From NCBI GenBank assembly GCA_964291625.2, contig OZ220089.1, positions 3,296,001-3,360,000 on the forward strand: a stretch of 64,000 nt of DNA, in the 5' to 3' direction. Every line of letters begins with the position of its first letter. Within the stretch, counting starts at the first letter, position 1. A model generated the notes under the pieces. It was not told the DNA's origin. It made no database searches and worked only from the letters and a program-made list of their open reading frames with translations. Of this stretch, positions 1 through 17,172 are shown piece by piece. Origin of the DNA: Candidatus Latescibacterota bacterium (lineage in GTDB: Bacteria; Latescibacterota; UBA2968; UBA8231). Position numbers and translations under genes: made by a program.

Positions 1-128
1 TAGAGGTAGTCGTGCCACTCCTCGTCGCCCGCCGCCGTGGACGGGGAAGGCCGTGGACTGTACTCGCCGCCGTAGTGGAACTCGGAGACGTTGCGCTCGC
101 CGCAGTGGGGGCAGGCCAGCAGCAGCAT
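1..128 (-). CDS. soxD: Sarcosine oxidase delta-subunit family protein (SoxD/MgdB-like), partial, runs off the window edge
   Basis: Translated by hand as MLLLACPHCGERNVSEFHYGGE...EEWHDYL, with the CPxCGxR..EF.YGG zinc motif of SoxD. Its ATG overlaps the TGA of the upstream soxB-like gene (TGATG). Confidence 0.85.
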   Translation of the reverse strand, partial: MLLLACPHCGERNVSEFHYGGEYSPRPSPSTAAGDEEWHDYL

Positions 129-1360
129 CAGTGGCCCACCGCGGCGGCGCCCTTCTCGCCCACGGGGTCGAACTCGGCGAAGCGGGAGAGGCGGAAGGGA
201 TGGATGAGGTCGGGGGTGCGCCCCGTGGCGATCAGCTCGGCCAGGGTCTGGCCGCAGATGGGGGAGGCCTTGAAGCCGTAGGTGCCCCAGCCGGCGTCGA
301 GGTAGAAGCCCTTCACCGGCGTGACCCCCATGAGGGGGCTGTAGTCGGGGGGCATCTCGCACAGCCCCGCCCACTGGCGCAGGATGCGGACCTGCGACAG
401 GAAGGGGAAGAGCTCCAGCACGTGCCCCGAGAGGCCCTCGAGGAAGTCGAGGGAGCCGGCCGTGGAGTAGGAGGTGAAGGGATCGACGCTGGCGCCCATG
501 ACCAGCTCGCCGCGGCCGGACTGGCTGATGTAGACGTGGAGGGAGCCGGAGACGACGACCACGTCGAGGAACGGCTTGAGGGGTTCGGTGACGCAGGCCT
601 GGAGGGGGAAGGTGTCCAGGGGCAGGCGCAGGCCGGCCATGGCGGCCAGGTCGGAGGCCCAGCCGGCCGTGGCCGAGAGCACGGTCCCGGCCGCCACCGG
701 CCCCCGGGTGGTCTGCACGCCGGTGACGCCGCCGGCGGCCACGTCGATGCCGGTGACCTCGGTGTACTGATGGATGTCGACGCCGCGCTCGTCGGCGCCG
801 CGGGCGTACCCCCAGACGACGGCGTCGTGGCGGATGATCCCCCCCGGCGGATGGTAGAGGGCGGCGTGGATGGGGAAGCGGGGGCGGTCCGACAGGTCGA
901 GCTGCGGGCAGATGCGGGCCAGCTCGTCGGGGAAGACGAGGCGGGAGTCGACGCCCTCCAGGCGGTTGACCTCGGCGCGGCGGCGCATGGTGCGCACCGA
1001 GCCGTCGTCGTGGGCCAGGGTGAGGTGGCCGCGGCGGCTGAACATGACGTTGAAATCGAGGTCTTCGGACAGGTCTTCGTAGAGATCGAGGCTGGCGTCG
1101 TAGAAGCGCACGCCCTCGGGGGTGAGGTAGTTGGAGCGCAGGATGGCGGTGTTTCGTCCCGAGCCCCCGGAGCCGATGTAGCTCTTCTCGAGGACGGCCA
1201 CGTCGGTGACGCCGTGGTCCCGGGCCAGGTAGTAGGCGCAGGCCAGTCCGTGGGCGCCGCCGCCGATGATGACGACGTCGTAGCGGTCCTTCAGGGGTCG
1301 GTCGTGCCACATGCGCCGGGGCCTGGCGCCCAGGCCGTGGCGCAGCAGCTTGAAGGGCAT
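128..1360 (-). CDS. soxB: Sarcosine oxidase beta-subunit family FAD oxidoreductase (probably N-methylglutamate dehydrogenase MgdA by context)
   Basis: YDVVIIGGGAHGLA FAD motif, GSGGSGRNT..LRSNY, GWGTYGFKASP and C-terminal EKGAAAVGH. Start trimmed to MPFKLL at 1360. Confidence 0.88.
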   Translation of the reverse strand: MPFKLLRHGLGARPRRMWHDRPLKDRYDVVIIGGGAHGLACAYYLARDHGVTDVAVLEKSYIGSGGSGRNTAILRSNYLTPEGVRFYDASLDLYEDLSEDLDFNVMFSRRGHLTLAHDDGSVRTMRRRAEVNRLEGVDSRLVFPDELARICPQLDLSDRPRFPIHAALYHPPGGIIRHDAVVWGYARGADERGVDIHQYTEVTGIDVAAGGVTGVQTTRGPVAAGTVLSATAGWASDLAAMAGLRLPLDTFPLQACVTEPLKPFLDVVVVSGSLHVYISQSGRGELVMGASVDPFTSYSTAGSLDFLEGLSGHVLELFPFLSQVRILRQWAGLCEMPPDYSPLMGVTPVKGFYLDAGWGTYGFKASPICGQTLAELIATGRTPDLIHPFRLSRFAEFDPVGEKGAAAVGH

Positions 1361-1634
1361 ACGGTGGCGCTCCGGCGCGGAAGTCCACGGGAGAAGGGCG
1401 ATAAGATGGTGGGCCCACGGGGTGCCCGCCACCGGGGGCCGGTGGCCGGCCGCCGGACATCCTGCGCCGCGTCGGGACGCGTGGTCCGGGTTGCCGGCCC
1501 CACTTCCCTTGCGCAACATCAGCGACTTGGGCCTGCGCGCGCCGAAGTGCGATCGGCGAGAGAAATCACGGGAGACCGCGAAGCGCAGGCCCCAGGAGGC
1601 ACGTCGACGCCGCGCGCCTCCGGGAGACGCCGAG

Positions 1635-3650
1635 ATGCCCTCACCCCGCTTCGACCGCAGCCTGCTGCCGCCGGCGGACCTCGAGTTCGTCGTCGTCTCC
1701 GACACCCACTACATGATCGACGTGGGCGACGCGCCCCTGGAGTTCGAGTCGCGCCGCCGCCAGGGCGAGCGGGCCGGGGCCGCCTGGCGCGCCATCGCCG
1801 GCCTCGACCCGGCCTTCGTCGTGCACCTGGGCGACATGGTGCAGGAGTTCCCGGGCCGTCCCGACTACGACCGCGCCGCGCGCGAGGCCCTCGGCCAGAT
1901 CCACGGCGCCGGCCTGTGGGAGCGCTGCCGTTTCGCGGCCGGCAACCACGACATCGGCGACCGGCCCGACCCGACCATGCCCACGGGCGAGGCCACGGAG
2001 GAGAGTCTCGACACCTGGGAGCGCCGGCACGGCCCGTCCTGGCACGCATGGGACGCGGCCGGGATCCGCTTCCTGGTGCTCAACTCGCAGCTGTTCAACA
2101 CGGGCCTGGCCGCGCACGCCCGCCAGCGGGCCTGGCTCGAGGCGCAGCTGGCGGAGGCCGATGGCAGGCCGTGCGTCCTGTTCCTGCACATGCCGCCGTA
2201 CCTCGCGGACCCCGCCGAGCCCTGGCTCGGCCACTACGACAACCTCGGCGAGCCGGACCGCGGCTGGCTCCTCGACCTGGTGCGCCGGCACCGGGTGCTG
2301 GCCATGTTCGCCGGCCACGTGCACTTCCAGTTCTTCGACCACGTGGCCGGGGAGAGCGGCGTCTGCCGCTACTACGTCACCCCCTCCCCGTCCTTCACCC
2401 GACCCGGGTTCTCGCACCTCTTCACCTCGGCCCCGCCCCCGGAGCAGGGCCGGGACGACGAGGAGAAGCTGGGGTTCTTCTTGTGCCGGATGGTCGGCGG
2501 CCGCCTCGACGTTCACCGCCTGCGCATGGCGGCCCTGCTGGCCGCGGGCGACGGTGCCTGCCTGATCACTCCGCTGCCGGCGGCGTGCGAGGGGCCGTCC
2601 CGAAGCAGACCGGGTTTCGACCCGGGCGTCACCCTGCGCCATGCGCTGGCCCCCCGGGCCGAGGTGCCCCTGGCCTGGCCGTCGGTGATTCGCCAGCCGG
2701 TGCGCAACGACTACCCCCTGCTCGCCTGCCTGGAGATGGGCGTCTCGTGGGTGCGCGCGCCCCTGGCCGACCTGGCGGACCCGCTCCAGGCCCGGCGCCT
2801 GGAGGTGCTGCGCGCCGAGGGGGTCCGCGTGCAGGCCGTCGCCCTCGGCGAGGAGGAGGCCCTCGGCCGCGCCGGCGATCTTGCCGGGGCGGACGCCCTG
2901 GAGGTGCAGTTGCCCGGGCGCCTGCTGCCGGACATCCGGTCCCTGGCGGCGCTGGGAGAGGCCGCCCTTCCCCTGGTGCTGTCCCCCGTGCTGCCGGGCC
3001 AGCCGGTGCCGGGCAAGCAGCACCACCGCACGAGGATCGGGTACTTGCCCGAAGAGCTGGACGGCCTCGCCGAGGCCCTCGAGGAGGCGCACCTGACGGC
3101 CGCCGCCGCCTGCCGGCTGGACCCGTCTGACCCTTGGGAGACGGCGCGGCTCCTGGAGCAGGCCCGTGGCCGCAGACCGTTGCAGCTGCAGCTGCTGGCC
3201 GAGATGCCCGGCGTCGACGACGGGACCAACGCTCACTCGGTGGCGCGCGCCATGCTGGCCGCGGCGAGTCTCGACGTGCCCCTCTTCCTGGAGCCGCTGG
3301 TCGACCTGGACCGCACCATGGACGTGGCCCGGGGCCTGCTGGACACGCGCTGCAACCCGCGGCCCCCCTTCGAGGTCGCCCGTTGCCTTGGCGCCCTGCT
3401 GCGCCGGGGAGCCGGCCGAGCGGTCTCCGTCTCCCGGCGCGGGTCCTGCGAGATCGCCTCCCTCGGAGACCATGCCTGCCTGGTGATCGTCGAGGCCGGG
3501 TCCGTCCGTCCGGGTGAGGTGCTGGAGCAGCCGCCCCCCGGGCCCTTGTGGTCGTGCCGGCTCGCCGTGGGCGCGGTCTCCGCCTACCAGCCGCGGACCG
3601 AGCTGAGGCCGGAGGACGGCCCCCTGCTGGTGGTCCGCCGCGCCGACTGA
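1635..3650 (+). CDS. Calcineurin-like metallophosphoesterase with a long C-terminal (possibly TIM-barrel) extension
   Basis: All five metallophosphoesterase motifs are present: SDTH, LGD, GNHD, LH and GHVH. Start at ATG 1635 (MPSPRFD), downstream of GGAG. Confidence 0.8.
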   Translation: MPSPRFDRSLLPPADLEFVVVSDTHYMIDVGDAPLEFESRRRQGERAGAAWRAIAGLDPAFVVHLGDMVQEFPGRPDYDRAAREALGQIHGAGLWERCRFAAGNHDIGDRPDPTMPTGEATEESLDTWERRHGPSWHAWDAAGIRFLVLNSQLFNTGLAAHARQRAWLEAQLAEADGRPCVLFLHMPPYLADPAEPWLGHYDNLGEPDRGWLLDLVRRHRVLAMFAGHVHFQFFDHVAGESGVCRYYVTPSPSFTRPGFSHLFTSAPPPEQGRDDEEKLGFFLCRMVGGRLDVHRLRMAALLAAGDGACLITPLPAACEGPSRSRPGFDPGVTLRHALAPRAEVPLAWPSVIRQPVRNDYPLLACLEMGVSWVRAPLADLADPLQARRLEVLRAEGVRVQAVALGEEEALGRAGDLAGADALEVQLPGRLLPDIRSLAALGEAALPLVLSPVLPGQPVPGKQHHRTRIGYLPEELDGLAEALEEAHLTAAAACRLDPSDPWETARLLEQARGRRPLQLQLLAEMPGVDDGTNAHSVARAMLAAASLDVPLFLEPLVDLDRTMDVARGLLDTRCNPRPPFEVARCLGALLRRGAGRAVSVSRRGSCEIASLGDHACLVIVEAGSVRPGEVLEQPPPGPLWSCRLAVGAVSAYQPRTELRPEDGPLLVVRRAD

Positions 3651-4153: not shown

Positions 4154-4209
4154 GGATCGCCTCCCGATGGACGGCCGCGGCGCCGTCCGTTGAATGCGGA
4201 GAAATCAGA

Positions 4210-4238
4210 TTGCATTACATGACCGGGGCAAGTATACT
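4210..4238 (+). promoter_or_regulatory. Sigma70-type promoter of the XRE-glx operon, probably giving a leaderless mRNA
   Basis: TTGCAT (4210-4215), 17-nt spacer, TATACT (4233-4238). The ATG at 4246 lies at the expected start-site distance. Confidence 0.6.
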
Positions 4239-4245
4239 CCCGGGG

Positions 4246-4875
4246 ATGGCCGAGTCGAACCACAGGAACGCCGTCGCCGACCCGGCGACCACGGGGGCCC
4301 CGGAGAGCCGCCTGGAGCGTTCCATCGGCCGCCAGATCCGCACCTTCCGGCAGCAGCTGGACATGACCGCCGCCGACCTGTCGCGCGAGGCGGGCCTGTC
4401 GGCGGGGATGCTCTCCAAGATCGAGAACGGCCTGACCTCGCCCTCCCTGGCGACCCTGAGCGCCCTGGCGGGGGCCCTCAACGTCCCGGTGACCGCCCTC
4501 TTCCGCAAGTACGAGGAGGCCCGCGACGTCTCCTTCGTGCCCGCCGGCGCCGGTCTCGACATCGAGCGCCGGGGCACCCGCGCCGGCCACCAGTACCAGC
4601 TCCTCGGGCACACGGTGAGCCGGCGCATGTTCGTCGAGCCCTACCTCATCCACCTGACCGGCGAGTCGGACGTCTTCCCGGTCTTCCAGCACGGCGGCGT
4701 CGAGTTCATCTACATCCTCGAGGGGCGGATCACCTACCGCCACGGGGACCGCACCTGGGCCATGGGTCCGGGCGACTCCCTGTTCTTCGACGCCGAGGCC
4801 CCCCACGGGCCCGAGGAGCTCACCGAGCTGCCCATCCGCTTCCTGTCCATCCTGATCGAGCCGAGGGAGAGCTGA
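4246..4875 (+). CDS. XRE-family HTH transcriptional regulator with C-terminal cupin sensor
   Basis: IGRQIRTFR..LSAGMLSKIENGLTSPSLATL (HTH_3) and cupin FQHGGVEFIYILEG...GDSLFFDAEAPHGP. This type is usually found beside glxBCD. Confidence 0.9.
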   Translation: MAESNHRNAVADPATTGAPESRLERSIGRQIRTFRQQLDMTAADLSREAGLSAGMLSKIENGLTSPSLATLSALAGALNVPVTALFRKYEEARDVSFVPAGAGLDIERRGTRAGHQYQLLGHTVSRRMFVEPYLIHLTGESDVFPVFQHGGVEFIYILEGRITYRHGDRTWAMGPGDSLFFDAEAPHGPEELTELPIRFLSILIEPRES

Positions 4876-4876
4876 C

Positions 4877-5782
4877 ATGTGCGGCATCGCCGGAATCCTG
4901 TTCAAGCGCCCGCCGGAGCACCTGAGCGCCGGCCGGGCCCTGGTGGAGATGCTCGACGGCTGCCAGCACCGCGGCCCCGACTCCACCGGCTTCGCCCTCT
5001 ACGGCCGGGACGAGCCCGGCCGCCTGCGGCTGCGCTTCATCGTCGGCGAGGACGGCTGCGCCGAGGCGGCCTGCGCCCGCATCGCGGAGGTGCTGCACCG
5101 GGAGGGCGCCGCCGTGGTGAGCGAGGAGCGGGTCGGCGGCGACTACCGGGTCACCGTGGAGTTCGACGGCGACCTGCAGAGCTTCGCCTACGCCGTGGAG
5201 CACGCCGCCAAGGTCGTCTCCATCGGCTCGAGCCTGGAGATCGTCAAGGACGTGGGCGGCGCCCGCGACGTGGACGGCCGCTACGGCGTGCACGGCTTCG
5301 AGGGCAGCCACGGCCTCGGCCACGTGCGCCTGGCCACCGAGAGCGACGTCAAGCCCGAGGCCTCCCACCCCTTCTGGGCCACGGGCTTCGCCGACGTGGC
5401 GATCGTCCACAACGGCCAGATCACCAACTACTGGAAGATGCGCCGCCGCCTGGAGCAGCGCGGCTTCGAGTTCGCCACCGACAACGACTCGGAGCTGATC
5501 GCCGTCTACCTGGCGGACAAGCTCTCCCAGGGGGTGCCGCTCCAGGACGCCCTGCGCACCTCCATCGACGACCTGGACGGGACCTTCTCCTTCCTCGTGT
5601 CGACGAAGGACGAGATCGGCTACGCCAAGGACCGCATCGCCGCCAAGCCGATGATCATGTACGAGAACGAGGAGCTGGTGGCGGTCGCCTCGGAGGAGGT
5701 CTCCCTCAACCGCCTCTTCCCCGGCCAGGCCCTCGACACCCGCGAGCCCCCGCCGGGGACCTACGCCACGTGGTCCAGGTAG
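4877..5782 (+). CDS. glxB: Class II glutamine amidotransferase, N-methylglutamate synthase subunit A (GlxB/MgsA)
   Basis: N-terminal nucleophile MCGIAG, HRGPDSTG, GHVRLATES, HPF, VHNGQITNY, TDNDSE. Confidence 0.85.
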   Translation: MCGIAGILFKRPPEHLSAGRALVEMLDGCQHRGPDSTGFALYGRDEPGRLRLRFIVGEDGCAEAACARIAEVLHREGAAVVSEERVGGDYRVTVEFDGDLQSFAYAVEHAAKVVSIGSSLEIVKDVGGARDVDGRYGVHGFEGSHGLGHVRLATESDVKPEASHPFWATGFADVAIVHNGQITNYWKMRRRLEQRGFEFATDNDSELIAVYLADKLSQGVPLQDALRTSIDDLDGTFSFLVSTKDEIGYAKDRIAAKPMIMYENEELVAVASEEVSLNRLFPGQALDTREPPPGTYATWSR

Positions 5783-7695
5783 ATCTCGCCCGGGTCCCGG
5801 TCCGCCAGGCCAACGAGCGCATCCGCGCCCACGGCGAGGCCGGCGAGGACGTGGAGGTCCTCAACCCCGACGCCCGACACCACATCGGCGTCGGCCTCAC
5901 CTCGCCGATCCGCGTGCGGGTGCGGGGGTCGGCGGGATACTTCTGCGCCGGCCTCTCCGACCAGGCCCGCTTCGAGGTCGACAACAACGTCGGCTGGGGG
6001 CTGGCCGACAACATGTACACCGGGTCGGTGGTAGTCCGCGGCAACGCCGGCGCCATCGCCGGGGTCGCCGTCCGCGGCGCCGAGGTCGTGGTCCACGGCA
6101 ACCTCGGCTCCCGCGCCGGACAGGTGATGAAGGCCGGCACCCTGTGCTGCGCCGGCAACGCCAACTTCATGGCCGGCTACATGATGTACGGGGGGCGCAT
6201 CATCCTCCTCGGCGACTCGGGGGAGCGCGTCGGCGAGGACATGACGGGGGGCGAGATCTTCGTGGGGGGCCAGGTCCGCGACCTCGGCAGCGACGCCGAG
6301 CTGACCGACCTGGACGACGGCGACGACGATGGCGTGCGCGAGTTCCTCGACCGCTGGGAGATCCCCTTCCGCGGGTCGCTGCGGAAGATCGTCAACGCCG
6401 GCACGAAGCTGCGCTACGCCACCGAGGAGCCCCAGGTGCGCAGCATTCCCTTCTTCACCTACTCGCGGGACTCGGAGTACTGGAACCCCAAGGTGCAGGA
6501 GGACGTGCACGTCAAGTCGCGCATCGGCCGCTACCGGATCCGCGGCTACGGGGCGGCGCGGCCCCTGCCGCACCTGGCGGACCTCGGCTTCCGCGCCGAC
6601 CTGGGCGCCGCCGGCCGGGCGGAGGACGTGGTCTCCCGGGTCCAGATGCGCACCGAGATCGGCGGCCTCAACGGCGCCGAGCCCCTGAAGCTGAGCATGC
6701 CGGTCATGATCGCGCCCATGAGCTACGGCGCCATCAGCCGCTCGACGAAGCAGGCCGTGGCCATGGCCTCGGCCATGTCCGACATCGCCGAGAACACCGG
6801 CGAGGGCGGCATGAGCGACGCCCAGAGGGACGCGGCCAAGCAGTTGATCTTCCAGTGCCTGGGGGGCCGCCTGGGCTGGAACATCCACGACATGAAGCGC
6901 GCCGACGGCCTGGAGATCTACATCTCCCAGGGGGCCAAGCCCGGCCTCGGCGGCCAGCTGATGGCCAAGAAGGTGACGCCGGAGCTGGCGGCGATCCGCG
7001 GCATCCCGGCGGGCATCGACCTGCGCTCGCCGTCGCGCCACCCGGACATCCTCGGCGCCGACGACCTGGTGATCAAGATCGAGGAGTTCCGCGAGGCCAC
7101 GGGCTACCGCAAGCCGGTGAGCGTCAAGCTCGGCGCCGGGCGGGTGCGCGACGACATCAAGATCGCCGTCAAGGACGGCTTCGACTTCGTCGAGCTCGAC
7201 GGCATGCAGGGGGCCACCGGCGCCGGCAGCGGCGAGGTCATCGACCACGTGGGCATCCCCACCCTGCCGGCGATCATCGAGGCCCTGGAGGCGCTCGAGG
7301 AGATCGGCCGCCGCCAGGACATCGAGGTCGTCCTCATGGGCGGCCTGCGGGACGGCATCGACGCGGTGAAGGCCCTCTGCCTCGGGGCGGACGCCGCCGC
7401 CTTCGGCACCTCGGTGCTCATCGCCGGCGGCTGCATCGCCTGCATGCAGTGCCACGTGGGCCAGTGCGTCACCGGCATCGCCACCCAGGACCCGGAGCAC
7501 GAGAAGCGCTACGAGCCGGCCGTGGAGGCGCGCAACATCCACCGCTTCCTGGAGACCGTGCGCTGGCAGATCGCGGCCCTGACCCACGCCATGGGCTACT
7601 CCAGCACCCGCGAGCTGAACCGCGGCGACCTCGTGGCCCTGACGCCGGAGGCCGCCGAGATCACCGGCCTGCCGCTGGCGCCCGGACCGGGCTGA
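5770..7695 (+). CDS. glxD: Fused GXGXG-domain (GlxC/MgsB) and FMN-binding glutamate-synthase-like (GlxD/MgsC) protein
   Basis: GTG start overlaps the end of glxB. The N-terminal part has GXGXG beta-helix repeats (GSAGYFCAG, GNAGAIAG, GNLGSRAG). The C-terminal part has APMSYGA, TGEGG, QGAKPGLGGQL, DLRSPSRHPD and the Fe-S motif CIACMQCHVGQC. Confidence 0.85.
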   Translation: MVQVDLARVPVRQANERIRAHGEAGEDVEVLNPDARHHIGVGLTSPIRVRVRGSAGYFCAGLSDQARFEVDNNVGWGLADNMYTGSVVVRGNAGAIAGVAVRGAEVVVHGNLGSRAGQVMKAGTLCCAGNANFMAGYMMYGGRIILLGDSGERVGEDMTGGEIFVGGQVRDLGSDAELTDLDDGDDDGVREFLDRWEIPFRGSLRKIVNAGTKLRYATEEPQVRSIPFFTYSRDSEYWNPKVQEDVHVKSRIGRYRIRGYGAARPLPHLADLGFRADLGAAGRAEDVVSRVQMRTEIGGLNGAEPLKLSMPVMIAPMSYGAISRSTKQAVAMASAMSDIAENTGEGGMSDAQRDAAKQLIFQCLGGRLGWNIHDMKRADGLEIYISQGAKPGLGGQLMAKKVTPELAAIRGIPAGIDLRSPSRHPDILGADDLVIKIEEFREATGYRKPVSVKLGAGRVRDDIKIAVKDGFDFVELDGMQGATGAGSGEVIDHVGIPTLPAIIEALEALEEIGRRQDIEVVLMGGLRDGIDAVKALCLGADAAAFGTSVLIAGGCIACMQCHVGQCVTGIATQDPEHEKRYEPAVEARNIHRFLETVRWQIAALTHAMGYSSTRELNRGDLVALTPEAAEITGLPLAPGPG

Positions 7696-7699
7696 CCCC

Positions 7700-10237
7700 A
7701 TGGCCGTCTACGATCTGCTGCGCATCGAGATGCCGGACGCGCCGCCCGGCTTCGCCGACGACACCGGCGACCTCCACTACGTGCCGGCCCCCTGCCAGGT
7801 CGCCTGTCCCGTGGGCACCGACGCGGCCTCCTACATCGGCCTGATCTGGGAGGGGAAGTACGAGGAGGCCTTCGAGGCGATCACGGCGACCAACCCCTTC
7901 AGCTCGATCTGCGGCCGCGTCTGCGACGCCCCCTGCGAGCCCGCCTGCCGGCGCACCGACTCGGACGGCCCGATACAGATCCGCAACCTCAAGCGCTTCG
8001 TCATGGACCGCATCGGCCACCGCTGCGACCCGCCGCCGGTGCCGGTGACGAAGAAGGAAACGGTCGGCATCGTCGGCGCCGGCCCGGCGGGGCTGACCGC
8101 GGCCCACGACCTCGGCGAGGCCGGGTACGCCGTGCACGTCTACGAGATGACGGACCGCCTCGGCGGCATGATGGTCTGGGGGATCCCGGCCTTCCGCCTG
8201 CCGCCGGGGATCATCGACGAGGACATCACGCGCCTGACGCGGCGTTGCCCCGGCCTCGAGGTGCACCTGAACACCGGCCTCGGCCGCGACATCAGCCTGG
8301 CGGAGCTGAAGGAGCGCCACGACGCCGTGCTGCTGGCCATCGGCGCCTGGTGGGGCAAGCCGATGGGGATCCCCGGCGAGGAGCACGAGGGCGTGATCGA
8401 CGGCGTCGGCTGGCTGCGCGAGATCAACGCCGGGGCGCGGCCCCGGCTCCCCAAGAAAGTGGTCGTCGTCGGCGGCGGCGACGTGGCCATGGACGCCTGC
8501 CGCGTCGCCCGGCGGCTGCCCGGCTGCGAGCACGTGCAGGTCCTCTACCGCCGCGGGCCGGAGGAGATCCCGGCGCGCCCCATCGAGCTGGAGGGGGCGA
8601 TCGCCGAGGGCATCGAGTTCGTCTACCACACCCAGCCGGTGGCCGTCGAGCCCCGGGGCGACGGACTCGCCCTCAGGTGCGTGCGCACCGAGCTCGGCGA
8701 GCCCGAGGCCGACGGCCGCCGCCGCCCCGTCAACGTGGCGGGCAGCGAGCACGACTTCGAGTGCGGCCTGGTGATCGCGTCGGTGGGGCAGAAGGGGGTC
8801 TGCGACGAGCTCGACGAGCTGGGCATGATGCGCCCCGACCGCATCGACGCCGACTTCGAGAGCATGCGCACCACCGACCCCAAGGTCTTCGCCGCCGGCG
8901 ACGGCGCCTTCGGCGGCTCGACGATCGTCATCGCCATGCACCACGGGCAGAAGGCCGCCTACTACGTGCGCAACTTCCTCGAGGGCCACGACGAGCCCCT
9001 GCCCTACCGCACCCCCTACCGCACGCGGCGCGTGGAGGTGGCCCAGGACGCCCTGTGGGAGCGGCTGGCCCTGCAGCACCCGGAGTTCCACGGCCTCGGC
9101 CGCGAGCCGGTGACCTTCCCCGAGATCGAGAGCACCTACGACCCGGAGTCGGCCCACAAGGAGGCGGCGCGCTGCTACCGCTGCGACGCCGAGACCGGCA
9201 CCCCCGACTACAGCGTGCAGCACCGCGAGGACCTGTTCTCCATGGCGCGGATGGAGAAGGGCGAGTCCGACAAGCAGCAGGCGATGCTGCGGCGCCGCCT
9301 GGCGCCCCGGGACAACCCCTTCCCCGAGCAGCGGCCGCCGCAGCTGGAGGACCTGGTCTTCCTGCCGGCGAACCTGTCGCGCCTGGTGATCGACCCCTAC
9401 CGCGAGGCCTGCCGCGTCGGCTGCGATCTCGGCGGCTCCCTGGAGCTGGCCCACCCGCTGATGGTCACCGGCTTCGACGGGGCGCCCCGCCAGGTGAAGG
9501 AGGCGGTCGCCACCGGGCTGGCCGAGGCGGAGGCCGTCTACGTGGGGGCGCAGCCCCTGTCCCGGGAGACGGCGGTCACCTGGCTCCAGGTGCTCGGCGA
9601 GGACGGCGCGGAGCCGCGGGCGGAGGCGGCGGGGCTGCTGCGGTTGGTCTCCGGCACCGGGGAGGCGCGACTGCCCGAGCGCTTGCGCGAGGAACAGGTC
9701 ACGGGTCTGGTGGTCTCGCGGCGGGAGCACCTGGAGGCGGCGGTTTCCGCCGCCCTCGAGCAGGACCAGTCCCTGCTGCTGCTCAACGGCCAGGGTCCCG
9801 CGTGGCCCGCCAACGGCTGGGCGGAGCTGGCCGGGGCGCCCGACCTGCGGCTGCTGCGGGATGCCGTGCGCCTGCTGCGGGAACACCGCCGCGAGGGCGA
9901 CGTGGACCTCGTCCACTTCGGCGGGGTCCGCTCCGGCACGGATGCGGCCAAGCTCATCGGCCTGGGCGCCGCGGCCATGGTGATGGGCGTCTCGGCGGGA
10001 CTGGCGGCCGGCGGTCACATTCGGGGCCCGGAGCTGGCCTTCGACGCCGACCTCGGCGCCGAGGAGCGCGCCTCCGCGGTGGCCAACCTGGTCCGCGCCA
10101 ACTGCAGCGAGGCGTCGATGATGGCGCGCTGCTGCGGCAAGACGGTGCTCCACAACATCGAGCCCGAGGACCTGCGGGCCCTGACCCTGGCCACCAGCGA
10201 CAGCACGGGGATTCCGCTGGCGGGGCAGCGGGGGTGA
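7700..10237 (+). CDS. GltD-like FAD/NAD(P)H Fe-S oxidoreductase fused to a degenerate GlxD-type barrel
   Basis: APCQVACP..CGRVCDAPCEPAC (Fe-S), VGAGPAGL (FAD), VGGGDVAMD (NAD(P)H) and EAARCYRC. These are followed by LEDLVFLPANLSRL and C-terminal MARCCGKTVLHNIEPEDLRALT, which resemble the ends of GlxD. Confidence 0.8.
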   Translation: MAVYDLLRIEMPDAPPGFADDTGDLHYVPAPCQVACPVGTDAASYIGLIWEGKYEEAFEAITATNPFSSICGRVCDAPCEPACRRTDSDGPIQIRNLKRFVMDRIGHRCDPPPVPVTKKETVGIVGAGPAGLTAAHDLGEAGYAVHVYEMTDRLGGMMVWGIPAFRLPPGIIDEDITRLTRRCPGLEVHLNTGLGRDISLAELKERHDAVLLAIGAWWGKPMGIPGEEHEGVIDGVGWLREINAGARPRLPKKVVVVGGGDVAMDACRVARRLPGCEHVQVLYRRGPEEIPARPIELEGAIAEGIEFVYHTQPVAVEPRGDGLALRCVRTELGEPEADGRRRPVNVAGSEHDFECGLVIASVGQKGVCDELDELGMMRPDRIDADFESMRTTDPKVFAAGDGAFGGSTIVIAMHHGQKAAYYVRNFLEGHDEPLPYRTPYRTRRVEVAQDALWERLALQHPEFHGLGREPVTFPEIESTYDPESAHKEAARCYRCDAETGTPDYSVQHREDLFSMARMEKGESDKQQAMLRRRLAPRDNPFPEQRPPQLEDLVFLPANLSRLVIDPYREACRVGCDLGGSLELAHPLMVTGFDGAPRQVKEAVATGLAEAEAVYVGAQPLSRETAVTWLQVLGEDGAEPRAEAAGLLRLVSGTGEARLPERLREEQVTGLVVSRREHLEAAVSAALEQDQSLLLLNGQGPAWPANGWAELAGAPDLRLLRDAVRLLREHRREGDVDLVHFGGVRSGTDAAKLIGLGAAAMVMGVSAGLAAGGHIRGPELAFDADLGAEERASAVANLVRANCSEASMMARCCGKTVLHNIEPEDLRALTLATSDSTGIPLAGQRG

Positions 10238-10395
10238 GCTGACCCAACGTCGGTCTGATGTCCGTATATTCGCTTACCGCTTGCACTTGACAGTCAGCCG
10301 TGTCTGTCATGGCGAACCCAGTGCGTGGTCAGGTCCCTTCAACGCTGCCGTGACTGCTTCGAACCCCAATAGTCCGGAGCGAGGATTGGTTCCAG

Positions 10396-11679
10396 ATGCT
10401 CATTGAATTCTCCGTCACCAATTTCAGATCGATCAAGGAGGAGGCTCGCCTCAGCTTGGTGGCCCGTCCCGGCAAGGAACACGAAGAGTCCATCATCACG
10501 GTGGAGAGCCCCGCCGAAGGCGCAAGGCCGATCCGACTTCTTCGCTCGGCCGCGATCTACGGCGCCAACGCAGCGGGCAAGACCAATCTGCTTTGGGGCC
10601 TCAAGACGATGCACGACATCGTGCTACGTGCCTCCGGCAGTGTAGATGAGCTCCCAGTGACCCCGTTCAGGTTCGACCCCGCGTGCAAGACCCAACCGAC
10701 CTCTTTCGAAGTGGTGTGCGTGGCGGAAGGTGTTCGTTACCAGTACGGCTTTTCTGCCACTGCCGAGAAAGTGACCGATGAGTGGCTCTACGCGTGGCCC
10801 AGCGGAAGGCCCCAGACCTGGTTCGAAAGAAGCCGTAGTCGATCGGACAAGCCTGGGCCATGGAAACTAGGCGGGAAGCTCACCGGGGACCGAGAGGTCT
10901 GGAAGAGGGCCACCCGTGCCAACGACCTGTTTCTGTCAACAGCCGTTGCGCTCAACAGCAAGCAACTTCGCCCCATCTTCGACTGGTTTCACAAACGGCT
11001 CCACATCGCCGGAGTCGGCGGATGGCGTCCTGACTTTTCTGTGGATTTCTGTCGAAAGAAGAGCCAGGCAGCCGTAGTCGACTTTCTCAGCGAGGCCGAT
11101 CTCGCGGTTGCTGACATGCGGATTGTTGAGAAGGAGTTCTCTCCCAACATGCTCCCAAAGGGTATGCCGACGAAGCTGAGAGAGAGCATCGCCGAAGCCC
11201 CTGTTGGAGGCAAGACGGTAGATGTCTTTGTGCAGCATCAACCGAGGGGTGGTACACCGGACGAAATGGATATGGACGAGGAGTCTCACGGGACCCAGAA
11301 GATGTTTGCCCTTGCCGGCCCGTGGCTCGACTCCCTTGCCGAGGGCAACGTCATTGTCTTCGATGAGTTGCATGAACACTTGCATCCGCAATTGGTCCGA
11401 TTCCTTGTCGGCCGGTTCCACGATCCTTCAGCCAATCCTCGCGGTGCACAGCTCGTCTTCACGACGCACGATACGTCCATTCTCGATCGGGACGTGTTTC
11501 GGGTTGATCAGATTTGGCTCTGCGAGCGCAATGAGCGCCTCGAGACAACGATTTTCCCGCTGAGTGATTTCCGGCCTCGCAAGGGAGTCAAGAGTCTGGG
11601 AAGGGCATATCTGTCCGGACGATTCGGAGCGCTTCCGTACATCCCTGGGTCCAGCCGTCAGGTATCCAATTCAGACTGA
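10396..11679 (+). CDS. RloA-like ABC/AAA_21 ATPase
   Basis: MLIEFSVTNFRSIK, Walker A YGANAAGKTN, signature ESHGTQKMF, Walker B VFDELHEHLHP, H-loop FTTHD and C-terminal YLSGRFGALP. Visibly lower GC than the flanks. Confidence 0.85.
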   Translation: MLIEFSVTNFRSIKEEARLSLVARPGKEHEESIITVESPAEGARPIRLLRSAAIYGANAAGKTNLLWGLKTMHDIVLRASGSVDELPVTPFRFDPACKTQPTSFEVVCVAEGVRYQYGFSATAEKVTDEWLYAWPSGRPQTWFERSRSRSDKPGPWKLGGKLTGDREVWKRATRANDLFLSTAVALNSKQLRPIFDWFHKRLHIAGVGGWRPDFSVDFCRKKSQAAVVDFLSEADLAVADMRIVEKEFSPNMLPKGMPTKLRESIAEAPVGGKTVDVFVQHQPRGGTPDEMDMDEESHGTQKMFALAGPWLDSLAEGNVIVFDELHEHLHPQLVRFLVGRFHDPSANPRGAQLVFTTHDTSILDRDVFRVDQIWLCERNERLETTIFPLSDFRPRKGVKSLGRAYLSGRFGALPYIPGSSRQVSNSD

Positions 11680-11682
11680 GCG

Positions 11683-12318
11683 ATGGCGCCACGCAGACGT
11701 CGCCATCGCCGGCAGATTCAGCGAAGAGGCCCCCAGCGGGAGCCTTACGATAGAGTGCTTGTGGTGTGTGAGGGCAAGAAGACCGAGCCGACGTATTTCA
11801 AGTCCCTGATACGCCGATTGCGTCTGAGTACCGCGAACGTCGAGGTCGAGGGAAGCGGCTCGGATCCCAGCCAGTTGGTAGAGAAGGCAAAGAGCCTCAG
11901 GAACAAGGAACAGCGACGGGGCGAGCGATACGACGCAGTCTATTGCGTCTTTGACAAAGACGAACATGCGCATTTCGCTGAGGCATCCGATGCAGCGAAA
12001 TCGGCCAACCTGAAGTTGGCTCGCTCTTGGCCGTGCTTCGAATTCTGGCTTCTGCTGCACTTCCTCTATAGTCGCAAGCCCTATGTGCGATCGGGCGACA
12101 GATCCCCGGCGCAGAACTGCGTGAGGGACCTGAGGAAGCACATGCCAAACTACGCGAAGGGAGACGCAGGCGTGTTCGAAGAGTTGGAGGACCGCCTGGA
12201 AACCGGGAATTCCAACGCGAGGCTTGCGCTGGCAGACGCGGAGGCAACAGGGGAGAGAAACCCCTCAACGGAGGTTCATTGCCTCATCGCGTACCTTCAG
12301 GCCCTCAAGGGCAATTGA
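11683..12318 (+). CDS. RloB-like TOPRIM-fold protein
   Basis: VLVVCEGKKTEPTYF, VYCVFDKD, SWPCFEFWLLLHF and NPSTEV are hallmark RloB blocks. Directly follows the ATPase. Confidence 0.85.
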   Translation: MAPRRRRHRRQIQRRGPQREPYDRVLVVCEGKKTEPTYFKSLIRRLRLSTANVEVEGSGSDPSQLVEKAKSLRNKEQRRGERYDAVYCVFDKDEHAHFAEASDAAKSANLKLARSWPCFEFWLLLHFLYSRKPYVRSGDRSPAQNCVRDLRKHMPNYAKGDAGVFEELEDRLETGNSNARLALADAEATGERNPSTEVHCLIAYLQALKGN

Positions 12319-12713: not shown

Positions 12714-14561
12714 TCAGCGCAGGAAGAGCAGCTTGCGCGTCTCCTTCACTGCACCCGTCTCCAGGCGGTAGAGATAGACGCCGCCGGCGACCGGGCGTCC
12801 GTGCTGGTCGCGGCCGTCCCAGGAAACCTCGCCGTAGCCGGCGGCGACCGGACCGTCGATCAGGGTTCGGACCCTCTGGCCCTGCAGGTTGTAGATGTGC
12901 AGGGTCGCCCTGGCGTCGCGGGGAGCCACGAAAGGCAGGACCGTGCTCCCGTTGAAGGGGTTGGGGTAGTTCTGGAGGAGGGTCCAGTCCGAGGGCGTTG
13001 AGGCCGGGGCGTCAGCGGTCCCGATGGCGGTGATGATGTCGGGCGGTCCCGAGGTGCGGAGTTGCTCCACGGTGAGCGCCGCTGGTTCGACGAAGGGCAT
13101 CGGCCACCCGCCGTCGACGAGGGGTTTGGAGCGGACCTCCCGCCCGTCGGACAGGGTGACGACCAGTTCCCACTCCTCGATCGGGGTCTCCGGGTCGCCG
13201 CCGCAGTCCCAGCGGGCGTCGGCGAAGCGGATGTTGTCCACCGCGGGCAGGTCGGGGTTGTAGTCGAACATGGGGTCCACCGTCATCTCGTCGGCCGAGA
13301 GGGTGGTGTAGAGCCGGGTGAGATAGGGTTTCTCGTCGAAGAGCCGGCCCACCTCTTCCAGCGGCTCTACGACGATCCGCTGCAGGTCGTCGGCCAGGGC
13401 GTCGGGATCGAAGGGGAGATCGCCGGTCCAGCGGTCGTAGGCGCGCATGTTGTTGTAGAAGGAGCGCTCGGCGATGTCGAGGAGCCGGCCCTCCTCCCGG
13501 GCGCGGTCGTAGGCTTCGCGGTCGCCGCCGAAGACGACATCGAGCACCCCTTCGTCGAGCACGGCGTCCGACATGGGGATGTGGCGGCGGATCAGGGTCT
13601 GCATCTGGGTGTCGCGGGGGAATCCCTGGGCGAGGGCGGCGTCGAGGAAGTCGGCGGGATGGGTCTTCCCGCGCAGCGCCTCCAGATCGAGCTCTCCGAA
13701 GAAGAACTCGCCCACGATGCTGCTCGGCCCGGCGTAGTCGGTGACGAAGGCCTGGCCTCCCGCCTCGTTCGCCGCCTGGGTGACGACCTCGGGGTAGTTG
13801 AAGCCGCCGCTCCACCAGTCGATCAGGGCCTCGTTGATCCGCACGTGCAGGTAGTTCTCCGGGATGGCGCGCCGGTCGGCCAGGACCCATGCGAGGATCC
13901 CGAGGTCGGGCTCGGTGGCCACCGCCGTGAGGCGGATCGGGATGCCCGGCCTCTCGGCGGCGTAGGTCATGGCGATCGGCTGCAGGTCCCCGACCTCGCT
14001 CTCGGCGGCGAGCTTGAGGGCCAGGAAGTAGAAGCCCTCCTCCACGTACGGTGTCAGGAGGGGAACCCCGAGGTCGCCGAGCTGGTAGCCGTTGTCGACG
14101 AGCCAGTCGACGATCGCCTGGGGGTCCTCGGAGGTGATGACCGCCGTGTCGTAGGGGCCCACCTGTTCCTGGAGGACCACCTCTACTTCCCCTCCCTCCT
14201 CGTCGAGGGCGGTGGGGACGGAGGCCCTCGTGAAGGCGATGGGGAAGCCGCAGTCGTCCTCCTGGAAGTTCAACCGGAAGCCGGGCCGGGTGGTCCACTG
14301 CAGCTGCGTGAAGATCTGGTTGTGGCTCACGGCCAGCTCCGGCACCGCGGGCACCGGCAGGATCCAGGCGAAGTCGGAGGCCGCGCCGCTGTAGAGGAGC
14401 TGCAGGTGGGTGGTGACCGTGCCCTCCCCCTGGACGAAGAGGATGTTCTCGGCCACCTGGTTCATGGGGAAGGTGGTGCAGAAGAAGCCGCCGCAGGCGC
14501 GGGCGGCGGGGGCGCCGAGCAGGAGGGAGAGGAACGCGGCGAGGGGCAGTCTGGCGGTCAT
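12714..14561 (-). CDS. Secreted DUF2330-domain protein with C-terminal FlgD-Ig/T9SS-CTD-like domain
   Basis: Signal peptide ending ARA-CGGFFC; FAWILPVP, VGPYD, IPIRLTAVA and YLTRLYTTLSADEMTVDPMF (DUF2330); C-terminal QNYPNPFN...IYNLQGQRVRTL...WDGRD..GGVYLYRL. GGAG RBS before ATG 14561. Confidence 0.85.
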   Translation of the reverse strand: MTARLPLAAFLSLLLGAPAARACGGFFCTTFPMNQVAENILFVQGEGTVTTHLQLLYSGAASDFAWILPVPAVPELAVSHNQIFTQLQWTTRPGFRLNFQEDDCGFPIAFTRASVPTALDEEGGEVEVVLQEQVGPYDTAVITSEDPQAIVDWLVDNGYQLGDLGVPLLTPYVEEGFYFLALKLAAESEVGDLQPIAMTYAAERPGIPIRLTAVATEPDLGILAWVLADRRAIPENYLHVRINEALIDWWSGGFNYPEVVTQAANEAGGQAFVTDYAGPSSIVGEFFFGELDLEALRGKTHPADFLDAALAQGFPRDTQMQTLIRRHIPMSDAVLDEGVLDVVFGGDREAYDRAREEGRLLDIAERSFYNNMRAYDRWTGDLPFDPDALADDLQRIVVEPLEEVGRLFDEKPYLTRLYTTLSADEMTVDPMFDYNPDLPAVDNIRFADARWDCGGDPETPIEEWELVVTLSDGREVRSKPLVDGGWPMPFVEPAALTVEQLRTSGPPDIITAIGTADAPASTPSDWTLLQNYPNPFNGSTVLPFVAPRDARATLHIYNLQGQRVRTLIDGPVAAGYGEVSWDGRDQHGRPVAGGVYLYRLETGAVKETRKLLFLR

Positions 14562-17081: not shown

Positions 17082-17172
17082 GGTGGGCCGTAGGGTTCGG
17101 AGGGTGGGGAGGTTTGAGCGGGCCGGTGTTGTTGTGGAAGTTACGGGCGCCCTGATACACCGGCAAAGAGAG

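What the first reader, a model, noticed from the sequence alone, without database searches (positions are those of the whole stretch)
7700..10237. GltD-like NAD(P)H module fused to a degenerate second copy of the NMG-synthase FMN subunit
Seen: an 845-aa protein starts 4 nt after glxC-glxD. Its N-terminal ~500 aa carry the GltD-type Fe-S, FAD and NAD(P)H motifs. The rest (~9200-10237) keeps GlxD-like ends (LEDLVFLPANLSRL; MARCCGKTVLHNIEPEDLRALT) but lacks TGEGG, QGAKPG and the CxxCxxC..C cluster, all intact in the upstream paralog. Known: N-methylglutamate synthase is described as MgsABC (GlxBCD), homologous to the pieces of GltB, without a dedicated GltD partner. Inference: the inactive barrel may dock an NAD(P)H electron supply onto the active GlxD, giving a GOGAT-like reductive amination (methylamine or ammonia plus 2-oxoglutarate) instead of the redox-neutral exchange. 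This is the best candidate for an undescribed enzyme system here.
Basis: partly seen in the sequence, partly recalled or inferred. Interest (0 to 1): 0.72.

Follow-up and report, generated by a model that had tools for sequence, protein, structure and literature searches.

The report
NADPH reductase subunit for N-methylglutamate synthase
This 845-residue protein joins a glutamate-synthase-type NAD(P)H electron-input module to a dead copy of the catalytic barrel, and together with the two genes before it probably forms an undescribed, electron-driven version of the enzyme that bacteria use to take nitrogen and carbon from methylamine.

Summary
Window 7700-10237(+) encodes 845 aa, starting 4 nt after glxCD. 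Residues 28-500 are a GltD/NfnB-type Fe-S/FAD/NAD(P)H module. Residues 500-845 ("FusC") are a confident TIM barrel, homologous over its whole length to the GlxD synthase barrel, but without TGEGG, QGAKPG and the Fe-S loop.

It is not a decaying gene. The architecture is conserved across phyla and always follows glxB-glxCD (80 of 80 genome loci). In other organisms FusC is fused directly to GlxCD, with or without the reductase, which argues that the barrel sits on GlxCD.

The partner GlxD keeps a GOGAT-like Fe-S motif. Classical GlxD/MgsC has no cysteine there. Every FusC-bearing genome checked (53 of 53) has a GmaS-type ligase.

In this genome an mgdABCD-like plus gmaS operon lacks mgsABC, whereas congeners have mgsABC at that spot and no FusC.

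Best reading (0.55): an NAD(P)H-driven, GOGAT-like N-methylglutamate synthase. The reaction would be gamma-glutamylmethylamide + 2-oxoglutarate + NAD(P)H giving N-methylglutamate + glutamate.

Binding and activity are untested: the complex predictor was unavailable. I found no paper describing this. It is a new variant of a known kind; interest 0.66.

The parts
7700..9199 (+). GltD/NfnB-like electron-input module of the 845-aa protein (residues 1-500). It carries the Cys ligands for two [4Fe-4S] clusters, FAD and NAD(P)H Rossmann folds, and a YRR motif. The 'EAARCYRC' segment, which lies at the N-terminus in GltD and NfnB, lies here at residues 472-496.
   Evidence: Pfam Fer4_20 and Pyr_redox_2. 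PDB matches: 9bov_A 323 bits, StnC 8oh5_C 304, NfnB 4ylf_B 261, GltD 2vdc_G 210. A second phmmer stretch aligns query 472-496 to 4ylf_B 19-43 and 2vdc_G 3-26. Invariant in 44 homologues: C32, C36, C71, C75, C79, C83, C492, C495, Y283, R284, R285.
9200..10237 (+). FusC: a degenerate GlxD-type (synthase) TIM barrel (residues 501-845). It keeps GGxRSGTDAAK and both terminal motifs, and lacks TGEGG, QGAKPG and the Fe-S loop.
5770..7695 (+). glxCD: a GXGXG beta-helix fused to the FMN/synthase barrel, with TGEGG, QGAKPG and the Cys loop C551/C554/C557/C562. The GTG start at 5770 is inferred; homology begins at 5782.
   Evidence: Pfam GXGXG E 1.3e-12 and Glu_synthase E 2e-93. The four Cys are invariant in 34 homologues. 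Motif alignment. Start region read; ORF starts in other loci lie 12 nt before the match.
4877..5782 (+). glxB: a class-II (Ntn) amidotransferase that begins MCGIAG. Its TAG stop at 5780-5782 overlaps the glxCD start.
   Evidence: Pfam GATase_6 and GATase_7; translation; sequence.
4194..4875 (+). A 227-aa protein directly upstream of glxB. Its homologues in other loci match the HTH-cupin regulator PuuR.
   Evidence: Homologues lie upstream of glxB in 8 of 80 genome loci. The L003 and L004 homologues match PuuR at E 1e-14, and the L054 homologue at E 4.2e-13. The window protein itself matched no NCBIfam or Pfam family.
128..1705 (-). A SoxB-family flavoprotein (MgdA-like). It is the first gene of an operon that runs off the window: soxB, (soxD), soxA, (soxG), then a GmaS-type ligase at G000:C1:3290793-3292097.
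   Evidence: TIGR01373 at 488 bits. SoxA family at 829 bits and TIGR03105 at 597 bits (cut-off 469.6) in L088. 83% identical to the SoxB of congener G123.

Best explanation
The protein is the electron-input subunit of a three-protein, glutamate-synthase-like enzyme made of GlxB, GlxCD and this protein.

Proposed mechanism:
1. Residues 1-500 take a hydride from NAD(P)H (probably NADPH) onto FAD and pass single electrons through two [4Fe-4S] clusters.
2. Residues 501-845 are a catalytically dead copy of the synthase barrel. It sits on GlxCD and so holds the reductase where its clusters can feed the Fe-S cluster and FMN of GlxD.
3. GlxB hydrolyses the gamma-glutamyl amide made by the GmaS-type ligase of the same gene neighbourhood, most likely gamma-glutamylmethylamide.
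4. The freed amine is added to 2-oxoglutarate on GlxD and the imine is reduced.

Net reaction: gamma-glutamylmethylamide + 2-oxoglutarate + NAD(P)H gives N-methylglutamate + glutamate. In this genome the enzyme stands in for the classical, cluster-free MgsABC.

Shown here: domain identities, motif losses and retentions, gene linkage, fusion forms, phyletic pattern.
Inferred: binding, cofactors, substrate, direction.
For: (1) Obligate linkage.
- glxCD lies directly upstream in 80 of 80 genome loci.
- glxB lies upstream in all 66 loci whose contig reaches past the start of glxCD.
- An in-frame ATG/GTG lies within -4 to +12 nt of the glxCD stop in 66 of 78 loci.
- In a 151-genome phylum sample, all 17 genomes with this GlxCD subtype (1059 bits or more) also have FusC.

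(2) Fusion forms.
- GXGXG + Glu_synthase + FusC in one chain of about 1020-1030 aa makes up most of the 120 best relatives of P0131. This form occurs in cultured Desulfobacterota.
- All-in-one chains of about 1490-1510 aa exist (P0129, P0311, P0351, P0385).
- 12 of 80 metagenome loci are of the GlxCD-FusC type.

(3) Redox logic.
- The partner GlxD has C-x2-C-x2-C-x4-C, which overlays the C-x5-C-x4-C motif of GltB.
- Eight GmaS-adjacent classical-type GlxD sequences and Rhizobium etli GlxD have no Cys there and carry TGDGG.
- GltD-like modules are known to hand NAD(P)H electrons to a second protein through [4Fe-4S] clusters, and in GltS on to [3Fe-4S] and FMN (PMC8097209, passages).

(4) Pathway context.
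- The own genome has soxB-soxA-(soxG)-GSIII without mgsABC.
- Congeners G123 and G071 have soxB-soxA-soxG-glxB-glxC-glxD-GSIII, with SoxB 83% identical in G123, and have no FusC.
- In the genus, 5 genomes have the fusion type and 4 have the classical type.
- The own genome has no other Glu_synthase-domain gene except canonical GltB.

(5) The ligase is amine-type.
- Own GSIII matches RhGmaS 7cql at 440 bits, against 281 bits or less for GS.
- The GmaS hallmarks named in PMC7948447 hold in 76 of 76 cluster-linked ligases: Lys30, no Asp at the Asp50' position, and Trp at the Glu-flap position.

(6) Co-occurrence with GSIII.
- 53 of 53 FusC-bearing genomes have GSIII over its cut-off.
- GSIII lies within 1 kb downstream in 28 of 42 type-A and 7 of 9 type-B metagenome loci with room.

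(7) Open question in print. The redox cofactor of NMGS is stated to be unknown, with NADH, NADPH or ferredoxin as candidates (PMC6237917, passages).
Against: - There is no direct evidence of binding, cofactors or activity.
- In the GTDB genome loci only 13 of 69 type-A loci with room have GSIII within 1 kb downstream, and 50 of 69 have none within about 8 kb.
- In three alphaproteobacterial genomes GSIII stands alone, without sox genes nearby.
- SoxB is near in only 8 of 80 genome loci and SoxA in 6 of 80, so an N-methylglutamate dehydrogenase is not a regular neighbour.
- Type B loci in anaerobic Desulfobacterota have no reductase beside them, so FusC has a role independent of NAD(P)H input.
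- FusC keeps an invariant FMN-phosphate-type loop (GGxRSGTDAAK) and two invariant Cys (C571, C811) that a pure docking role does not explain.
- The N-terminal module scores higher against StnC/NfnB-type proteins than against true GltD and falls under the curated GltD cut-offs.
- The classical enzyme is recalled, not read here, as redox-neutral. A reductive variant is therefore a change of chemistry, not just of subunits.
Confidence: 0.55

Rival explanations
1. It is a second, split NAD(P)H-glutamate synthase (glutamine + 2-oxoglutarate + NAD(P)H giving 2 glutamate). It would work with the type III ligase as an alternative GS/GOGAT cycle for ammonium.
For: All GOGAT modules have a counterpart: an Ntn amidotransferase with Cys1, a beta-helix, a synthase barrel with TGEGG, QGAKPG and a GltB-like Cys motif, a GltD-like reductase, and a degenerate barrel like the GltS central domain (PMC8097209). 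Many loci lack sox genes. In one alphaproteobacterial order the protein is nearly universal, 31 of 33 genomes.
Against: Canonical GltB is present as well in 6 of 6 genomes checked. The linked ligase has GmaS hallmarks and never the ammonium-binding Asp, 76 of 76. Own GSIII is far nearer to GmaS than to GS, 440 against 281 bits or less. In the own genus it alternates with classical mgsABC at an mgd-gmaS locus. Its distribution in the phylum is patchy, 19 of 151.
Confidence: 0.12
2. It has the same architecture and electron path but another job. Either it acts on a different gamma-glutamyl alkylamide (ethylamine, other small amines), or it runs oxidatively, as an NAD(P)+-linked dehydrogenase that releases the amine and 2-oxoglutarate from N-alkylglutamate.
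For: RhGmaS accepts several amines (PMC7948447, passage). The Asp50' position varies among linked ligases (A 55, T 15, V 5, W 1). PuuR-like regulators point to amine metabolism in general. Several GlxBCD paralog sets with GS-like genes coexist in alphaproteobacterial genomes.
Against: Where a full pathway is nearby, it is the mgdABCD-gmaS set of the methylamine route. In GltS the GltD-to-synthase direction is reductive (PMC8097209).
Confidence: 0.18
3. FusC is not inert. It binds FMN or another phosphorylated ligand, so the 845-aa protein is a self-contained oxidoreductase in the manner of dihydropyrimidine dehydrogenase (GltD-like module plus flavin barrel in one chain), or a ligand-sensing regulatory subunit.
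For: The phosphate-binding loop GGxRSGTDAAK is invariant in all architectures. The model is a full-size FMN-type barrel, Z 21-22 against FMN enzymes. The ESM Atlas feature search lists DPD-family clusters among look-alikes at 0.89, which is a lead only.
Against: TGEGG, QGAKPG and the Fe-S loop are gone. In the alignment to flavocytochrome b2 the positions of the flavin-N1 Lys and the catalytic His/Arg (residue roles recalled, not read here) are not conserved. The protein never occurs without GlxCD next to it, 80 of 80. There is no C-terminal ferredoxin domain as in DPD.
Confidence: 0.1

Closest known systems
N-methylglutamate synthase MgsABC / GlxBCD (EC 2.1.1.21) of methylotrophs and rhizobia
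   Same: The three core modules are shared: a GlxB amidotransferase, a GlxC GXGXG beta-helix and a GlxD FMN barrel. Gene order is the same, and so is the neighbourhood with a GmaS-type ligase and SoxBDAG-like N-methylglutamate dehydrogenase genes (R. etli locus; congeners).
   Different: Here GlxC and GlxD are one chain. GlxD is only 38-40% identical to classical GlxD and forms its own clade. It has a Cys motif and TGEGG where the classical protein has a Cys-free loop and TGDGG. Two modules are added: a GltD-like reductase and a dead barrel.
Bacterial NADPH-glutamate synthase GltBD (and ferredoxin-GOGAT)
   Same: The set of modules and the presumed electron chain are the same: NAD(P)H, FAD, two [4Fe-4S], an Fe-S cluster on the synthase barrel, FMN (PMC8097209). 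The degenerate barrel parallels the GltS central domain, which may itself derive from a duplicated synthase barrel (PMC8097209). The reductase-free type B parallels ferredoxin-GOGAT.
   Different: The modules are split and permuted over three proteins. FusC shows no detectable similarity to the central domain (hhalign 0.2%) and matches the synthase domain instead. The linked ligase is GmaS-type, not GS. The genome also has a normal GltB.
StnC of the Stn transhydrogenase (PDB 8OH5)
   Same: It is among the best sequence matches of the N-terminal module, 304 bits, with the same placement of the RCxxC segment after the flavin domain. It too carries a catalytically inactive enzyme-derived domain that serves assembly (PMC10482914, passage).
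   Different: The dead domain of StnC is formate-dehydrogenase-like with extra clusters. Its partner is a bifurcating StnAB module, not an amidotransferase-synthase.
Dihydropyrimidine dehydrogenase
   Same: A GltD-like module is followed by an FMN-type TIM barrel in one polypeptide (PMC8097209; PDB match 134 bits to the N-terminal part).
   Different: The DPD barrel is an active DHODH-like flavin site followed by a ferredoxin domain. FusC lacks the flavin-ring and substrate motifs and has no ferredoxin domain.

Membership tests
GltD-like NAD(P)H oxidoreductase modules (as defined in PMC8097209) | An N-terminal region with the ligands of two [4Fe-4S] clusters | tested here: met
   Fer4_20 at E 4.7e-23. 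Invariant C32, C36, C71, C75, C79, C83, C492, C495. The C492/C495 pair aligns with the N-terminal RCxxC of NfnB and GltD, so the segment is relocated.
GltD-like NAD(P)H oxidoreductase modules (as defined in PMC8097209) | An adrenodoxin-reductase-like FAD and NAD(P)H domain | tested here: met
   Pyr_redox_2 at E 2e-28, NAD_binding_8, Pyr_redox. Aligned from end to end with NfnB and GltD structures. The YRR motif is invariant; its role in NADPH choice is recalled.
True GOGAT small subunit GltD (NCBIfam TIGR01317 / TIGR01318) | Score over the curated cut-off | tested here: not met
   TIGR01318 scores 255.3 bits against a cut-off of 482.95. TIGR01317 scores 200.2 against 447.7.
Glu_synthase FMN/synthase domain (Pfam PF01645), for the C-terminal barrel | Score over the gathering threshold | tested here: not met
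   16.1 bits against 20.4 for the window protein. Relatives pass: 22-24 bits in G001-G003, and 28-54 bits in P0167, P0168, P0173, P0175.
Glu_synthase FMN/synthase domain (Pfam PF01645), for the C-terminal barrel | Catalytic motifs TGEGG and QGAKPG and the Fe-S Cys loop | tested here: not met
   All three are absent in the motif alignment and fall in gaps in hhalign.
Glu_synthase FMN/synthase domain (Pfam PF01645), for the C-terminal barrel | Fold of the synthase barrel | tested here: met
   Model pLDDT 87.1. Z 18.7, rmsd 3.6, 277 aligned residues to GltS alpha 819-1190.
Classical N-methylglutamate synthase MgsABC/GlxBCD | GlxB with an N-terminal Cys, a GXGXG subunit and an FMN barrel subunit encoded together | tested here: met
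Classical N-methylglutamate synthase MgsABC/GlxBCD | Orthology of the FMN subunit with classical glxD/mgsC | tested here: not met
   38% identity to R. etli GlxD. Separate clade with stem length 0.81. Different loop and TGEGG instead of TGDGG.
Classical N-methylglutamate synthase MgsABC/GlxBCD | Genomic link to gmaS and mgdABCD | tested here: met
   Own genome. Also G005, G004, L066, L126, L201. Not general: 13 of 69 genome loci have GSIII directly downstream.
Classical N-methylglutamate synthase MgsABC/GlxBCD | Formation of N-methylglutamate from methylamine or gamma-glutamylmethylamide | not testable with these tools
   Needs an enzyme assay.
GltS central domain (Pfam PF04898) | Sequence similarity to the central domain | tested here: not met
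   No PF04898 match at E up to 10. hhalign of 53 FusC sequences against 6 central domains gives probability 0.2%. The structural match to GltS falls on residues 819-1190, not 423-780.
Dihydropyrimidine dehydrogenase | An active flavin barrel plus a C-terminal 2x[4Fe-4S] ferredoxin domain | tested here: not met
   No ferredoxin domain after the barrel. DHO_dh only at E 0.19.

The most novel reading that the evidence does not exclude
This is a third class of glutamate-synthase-like enzymes: a 'methyl-GOGAT' that, together with GmaS, runs a GS/GOGAT-style cycle putting methylamine nitrogen straight into the glutamate pool at the cost of NAD(P)H (or of ferredoxin in the reductase-free type B of sulfate reducers). 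Its dead barrel is an independent, still recognisable repeat of the duplication-and-decay of the synthase barrel that has been proposed for the GltS central domain. It would do the same job of building the amine tunnel and seating the reductase.
Probability: 0.4. Interest if true: 0.8.

Novelty: new variant of a known kind. Interest (0 to 1): 0.66.

Why it matters
The N-methylglutamate route is a main way for marine and soil bacteria to use methylamine. The text I read says the redox partner of its synthase is still unknown (PMC6237917).

This gene set offers a version of the enzyme with its own NAD(P)H reductase and an Fe-S cluster on the catalytic subunit. The question 'redox-neutral exchange or reductive amination?' therefore becomes testable with defined proteins.

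The system is not rare:
- at least 821 clusters at 90% identity;
- relatives in 340 pattern-matched stretches of species genomes;
- 31 of 33 genomes of one alphaproteobacterial order.

gmaS-based surveys of methylamine users, and annotation that calls these genes 'glutamate synthase' or 'FAD-dependent oxidoreductase', may therefore miss or misname a common step.

It also gives a sequence-traceable example of a synthase barrel turned into a structural module, which bears on the origin of the GltS central domain.

Tried and rejected
Only the C-terminal domain was folded. The full-length protein and the GlxCD-FusC fusion were not folded, and the model's coordinates were not readable. The distance between C571 and C811 and the placing of conserved residues could therefore not be checked.
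- The ESM Atlas had no model.
- My early idea that C492, C495, C571 and C811 form an extra cluster was dropped. C492/C495 align with the N-terminal RCxxC of GltD/NfnB.
- The idea that this cluster is the organism's only GOGAT was rejected, because a canonical GltB exists.
- FusC as a homologue of the GltS central domain: no signal.
- No copy was found on plasmids. Two weak tail matches only.
- dmmABC (dimethylamine monooxygenase) was checked as a possible identity. The passages I read do not describe it as glutamate-synthase-like.
- The SAR11 glxB/glxD genes named in PMC3870248 were not compared.
- One search repeated the phylum sample by mistake, because G005 is the same genome as G093.
- RNA evidence: contigs of two sponge metatranscriptome runs of one study carry pieces of a relative that differs in about 1-4% of letters, across the cluster. 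They cover 29 of 30 bins of the whole 12.5 kb, and DNA carry-over is not excluded. This is no evidence of expression or of an operon transcript.
- The FusC tree with type B nested among types A and C is a FastTree with a midpoint root, and no support values were read. It is a hint only.
- Literature: searches found no paper on a GltD-like partner or fourth subunit of GlxBCD/MgsABC. The library holds only CC-licensed PMC papers and bioRxiv, and no supplements were opened.
Full report
**What is there**

The window has 72% G+C. Third-position G+C picks out the real frames.

- On the + strand lie a 227-aa protein (4194-4875), glxB (4877-5782), glxCD (GTG 5770 to 7695) and the 845-aa gene (7700-10237).
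- GlxB begins MCGIAG.
- GlxCD has GXGXG plus Glu_synthase at E 2e-93.
- The 845-aa protein has Fer4_20 (residues 30-104) and Pyr_redox_2 (122-416).
- Its best NCBIfam rows are PRK12771 and PRK12814, both under their cut-offs. The true GltD models are far under theirs.

**The C-terminal 345 residues (FusC)**

Single-sequence family scans barely see this part: Glu_synthase 16.1 bits, under the 20.4 cut-off, and FMN_dh E 0.0014. Several independent comparisons nevertheless show a GlxD-type barrel.

- BLASTP against the upstream GlxCD gives E 7e-8.
- hhalign of 53 FusC against 34 GlxCD sequences gives 97.9% locally and 98.5% globally, colinear with GlxCD 211-637.
- tblastn against split GlxD genes gives E 1e-23 to 4e-26.
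- BLASTP against Rhizobium etli GlxD gives E 1.6e-19.
- The fold model is confident: pLDDT 87.1, pTM 0.84.
- The model matches FMN-dependent barrels at Z 21-22 (rmsd 3.2, about 250 residues).
- It matches the synthase domain of A. brasilense GltS (819-1190) at Z 18.7 with the longest alignment in the list, 277 residues.
- Foldseek agrees on the superfamily.

TGEGG, QGAKPG and the Cys loop are missing. GGxRSGTDAAK and both terminal motifs are kept.

**The N-terminal module**

- It is closest to StnC/NfnA/NfnB-type proteins (323-261 bits) and then to GltD (about 210 bits).
- Residues 472-496 ('...EAARCYRC') align with the very N-terminus of NfnB and GltD. The CxxC pair that looked like a new site is therefore the relocated part of the usual ligand set.
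- YRR after the second Rossmann strand is invariant and aligned with the same motif in GltD and NfnB. That it marks NADPH use is recalled knowledge.

**Not a decaying gene**

- At least 821 clusters at 90% identity share the C-terminal part. Most rows of the best 120 are 830-860 aa long, apart from fragments.
- Mean column identity is 70% over the whole protein (44 sequences) and 60% over FusC (53 sequences).
- FusC is monophyletic on a long stem. The base of the tree joining FusC, partner GlxD, split GlxD and GltB is unresolved (quick IQ-TREE; the careful search did not finish).

**Linkage**

- In 80 of 80 genome loci glxCD lies directly before the gene.
- glxB precedes glxCD in all 66 loci whose contig goes that far. 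The other 14 contigs end inside glxCD.
- Record titles span Gemmatimonadaceae, Latescibacterota, Gamma- and Alphaproteobacteria, Planctomycetota and Acidimicrobiia.

**Other architectures**

A profile search of 1.84 billion representatives found 1039 hits, 114 of them at E 1e-30 or better. Four forms appear.

- Type A is this one.
- Type B is GXGXG + Glu_synthase + FusC in about 1020-1030 aa. It makes up most of the 120 best relatives of P0131 and includes Desulforhabdus, Desulfosarcina, Desulfospira, Desulfobacter, Desulfococcus and Desulfocicer records.
- Type C is all in one chain of about 1490-1510 aa.
- Stand-alone barrels of about 360 aa also exist.
- P0131 itself was seen on 3 contigs from 2 sources; P0129 on one.
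- Of 80 metagenome loci, 48 are type A, 12 type B, 1 unsure and 19 too short to classify.
- Type B loci show no reductase next to them.

These fusions are the main support for FusC sitting on GlxCD. They also show that FusC is needed without the reductase.

**Redox logic**

- The partner GlxD has GGC-IAC-MQC-HVGQC, which overlays GltB's C-x5-C-x4-C. All four Cys are invariant.
- The GlxD of the classical glxBCD-glnT type has GDNDP...YDDWHxGxDPAG with no Cys, and TGDGG. This holds for 8 sequences and for R. etli GlxD.
- A third class of split GlxD has the Cys with a 17-residue insert.
- In GltS the Fe-S cluster on the synthase barrel exists to receive electrons from GltD or ferredoxin (PMC8097209, passages).

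**Pathway context**

- Just outside the window lie a SoxA-family gene and a type III ligase (597 bits against a cut-off of 469.6). They continue the SoxB gene at 128-1705(-).
- Congeners G123 and G071 carry soxB-soxA-soxG-glxB-glxC-glxD-GSIII (G071's stretch ends within soxA). SoxB is 83% (G123) and SoxA 66-67% identical to the own genes.
- The split GlxD of these congeners is 84-85% identical to rhizobial and Paracoccus glxD. The R. etli locus has the same layout.
- The own genome has no glxBCD between soxG and the ligase. Its only Glu_synthase-domain genes are GltB and this glxCD.
- In the genus, 5 genomes have FusC and 4 have the classical set next to GSIII.
- In the 151-genome sample FusC occurs in 19 genomes, all GSIII-positive. 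Of the 132 genomes without FusC, 55 are GSIII-positive, and 54 of these 55 have a split GlxD-type match.
- G005, which is the same genome as G093, has soxB-soxA-soxG-GSIII without mgsABC. G004 has GSIII beside soxB. G001-G003 have GSIII alone.
- One alphaproteobacterial order has FusC in 31 of 33 genomes and GSIII in 33 of 33.
- GSIII follows FusC within 1 kb in 13 of 69 type-A genome loci, 28 of 42 type-A metagenome loci and 7 of 9 type-B metagenome loci.

**The ligase**

- Own GSIII is nearest to RhGmaS (7cql, 440 bits) and to a 'glutamate-methylamine ligase' (9qur, 415 bits). GS entries reach at most 281 bits.
- PMC7948447 (passages) names Ala in place of the ammonium-binding Asp50', Trp in place of the Glu-flap Glu, and Lys30'.
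- All 76 linked ligases have Lys and Trp, and none has Asp: A 55, T 15, V 5, W 1.

**Reading**

Taken together, the protein is best seen as the beta-like subunit of a GOGAT-style enzyme that takes the place of classical MgsABC. NAD(P)H electrons would reach the GlxD flavin through Fe-S clusters, and FusC would act as a structural fourth module.

The GltS central domain is described as a truncated barrel that lines the ammonia tunnel and may stem from a duplicated synthase barrel (PMC8097209). FusC looks like a second, still traceable case, although it shows no similarity to the central domain itself.

StnC is a precedent for a GltD/NfnB-like module carrying an inactive enzyme-derived scaffold (PMC10482914).

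**Limits**

- Binding, cofactors, substrate and direction are inferred.
- Many loci show no ligase or sox gene nearby.
- The invariant phosphate loop and C571/C811 of FusC are unexplained.
- Papers were read as passages found by search terms, not in full, and no supplements were opened.
- Searches found no description of this architecture.

Noticed in passing
window 10396-12318 (+): Directly after the gene lies a low-G+C island (57-63% against about 72%). It holds an AAA_21 ATPase and an RloB-like protein that match the AbiLi (E 3.5e-91) and AbiLii (E 3.6e-26) abortive-infection pair.
   Followed up: partly
P0001 residues 571 and 811 (window about 9410 and 10130): Two cysteines (YREAC and MARCxGK) are conserved in FusC of all four architectures, in 52 and 50 of 52 sequences. 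They have no counterpart in GlxD or GltB. No explanation was found, and the model's coordinates were not readable.
   Followed up: partly
L089, L091-L094, L108-L116: A third class of split GlxD has NC...(17-residue insert)...CxHCHTGxCP, and some members have QGCKVG instead of QGAKPG. It is linked in alphaproteobacterial genomes to a GS-like gene (32% to GSIII, Val at the Asp50' position) and an Amt transporter, with no reductase nearby. Its electron donor is unknown.
   Followed up: partly
P0131, P0288-P0349; L124-L137, L201: A large family of about 1025-aa GlxC-GlxD-FusC proteins occurs in cultured sulfate reducers. The usual gene order is PuuR-like, glxB, this gene, GmaS-type ligase. No sox genes appear in most of these loci, so a methylamine-type ligase system exists in anaerobes without an evident N-methylglutamate dehydrogenase.
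   Followed up: partly
G000:C1:3290793-3292097 against G071, G082, G115, G123: Within one genus the type III ligase comes in two kinds: about 597 bits in genomes with FusC, and about 670 bits (435-aa frames) in genomes with classical glxBCD. The two kinds are 48% identical. The ligase seems to have been exchanged together with the synthase.
   Followed up: no
window 15783-17540 (-) and 16972-18288 (+): Two long high-GC3 frames overlap by about 570 nt on opposite strands. One is a CCG/4Fe-4S dicluster protein (GlpC/HdrD-like). The other has FAD_binding_4 plus MurB_C. At least one start or frame call must be wrong.
   Followed up: no
window 12714-14765 (-): A 683-aa protein with DUF2330, a FlgD Ig-like domain and a weak Por secretion tail.
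   Followed up: no
window 4100-10300: Near-identical sequence turns up mainly in sponge metagenomes of several studies, which suggests a sponge-associated lineage. I did not try to trace any sample.
   Followed up: no
L054, L068: Two Rhodospirillales genomes carry the fusion-type set, a classical glxB-glxC-glxD-GSIII set directly after it, and a third glxB/glxC on the other strand, all within 19 kb.
   Followed up: partly
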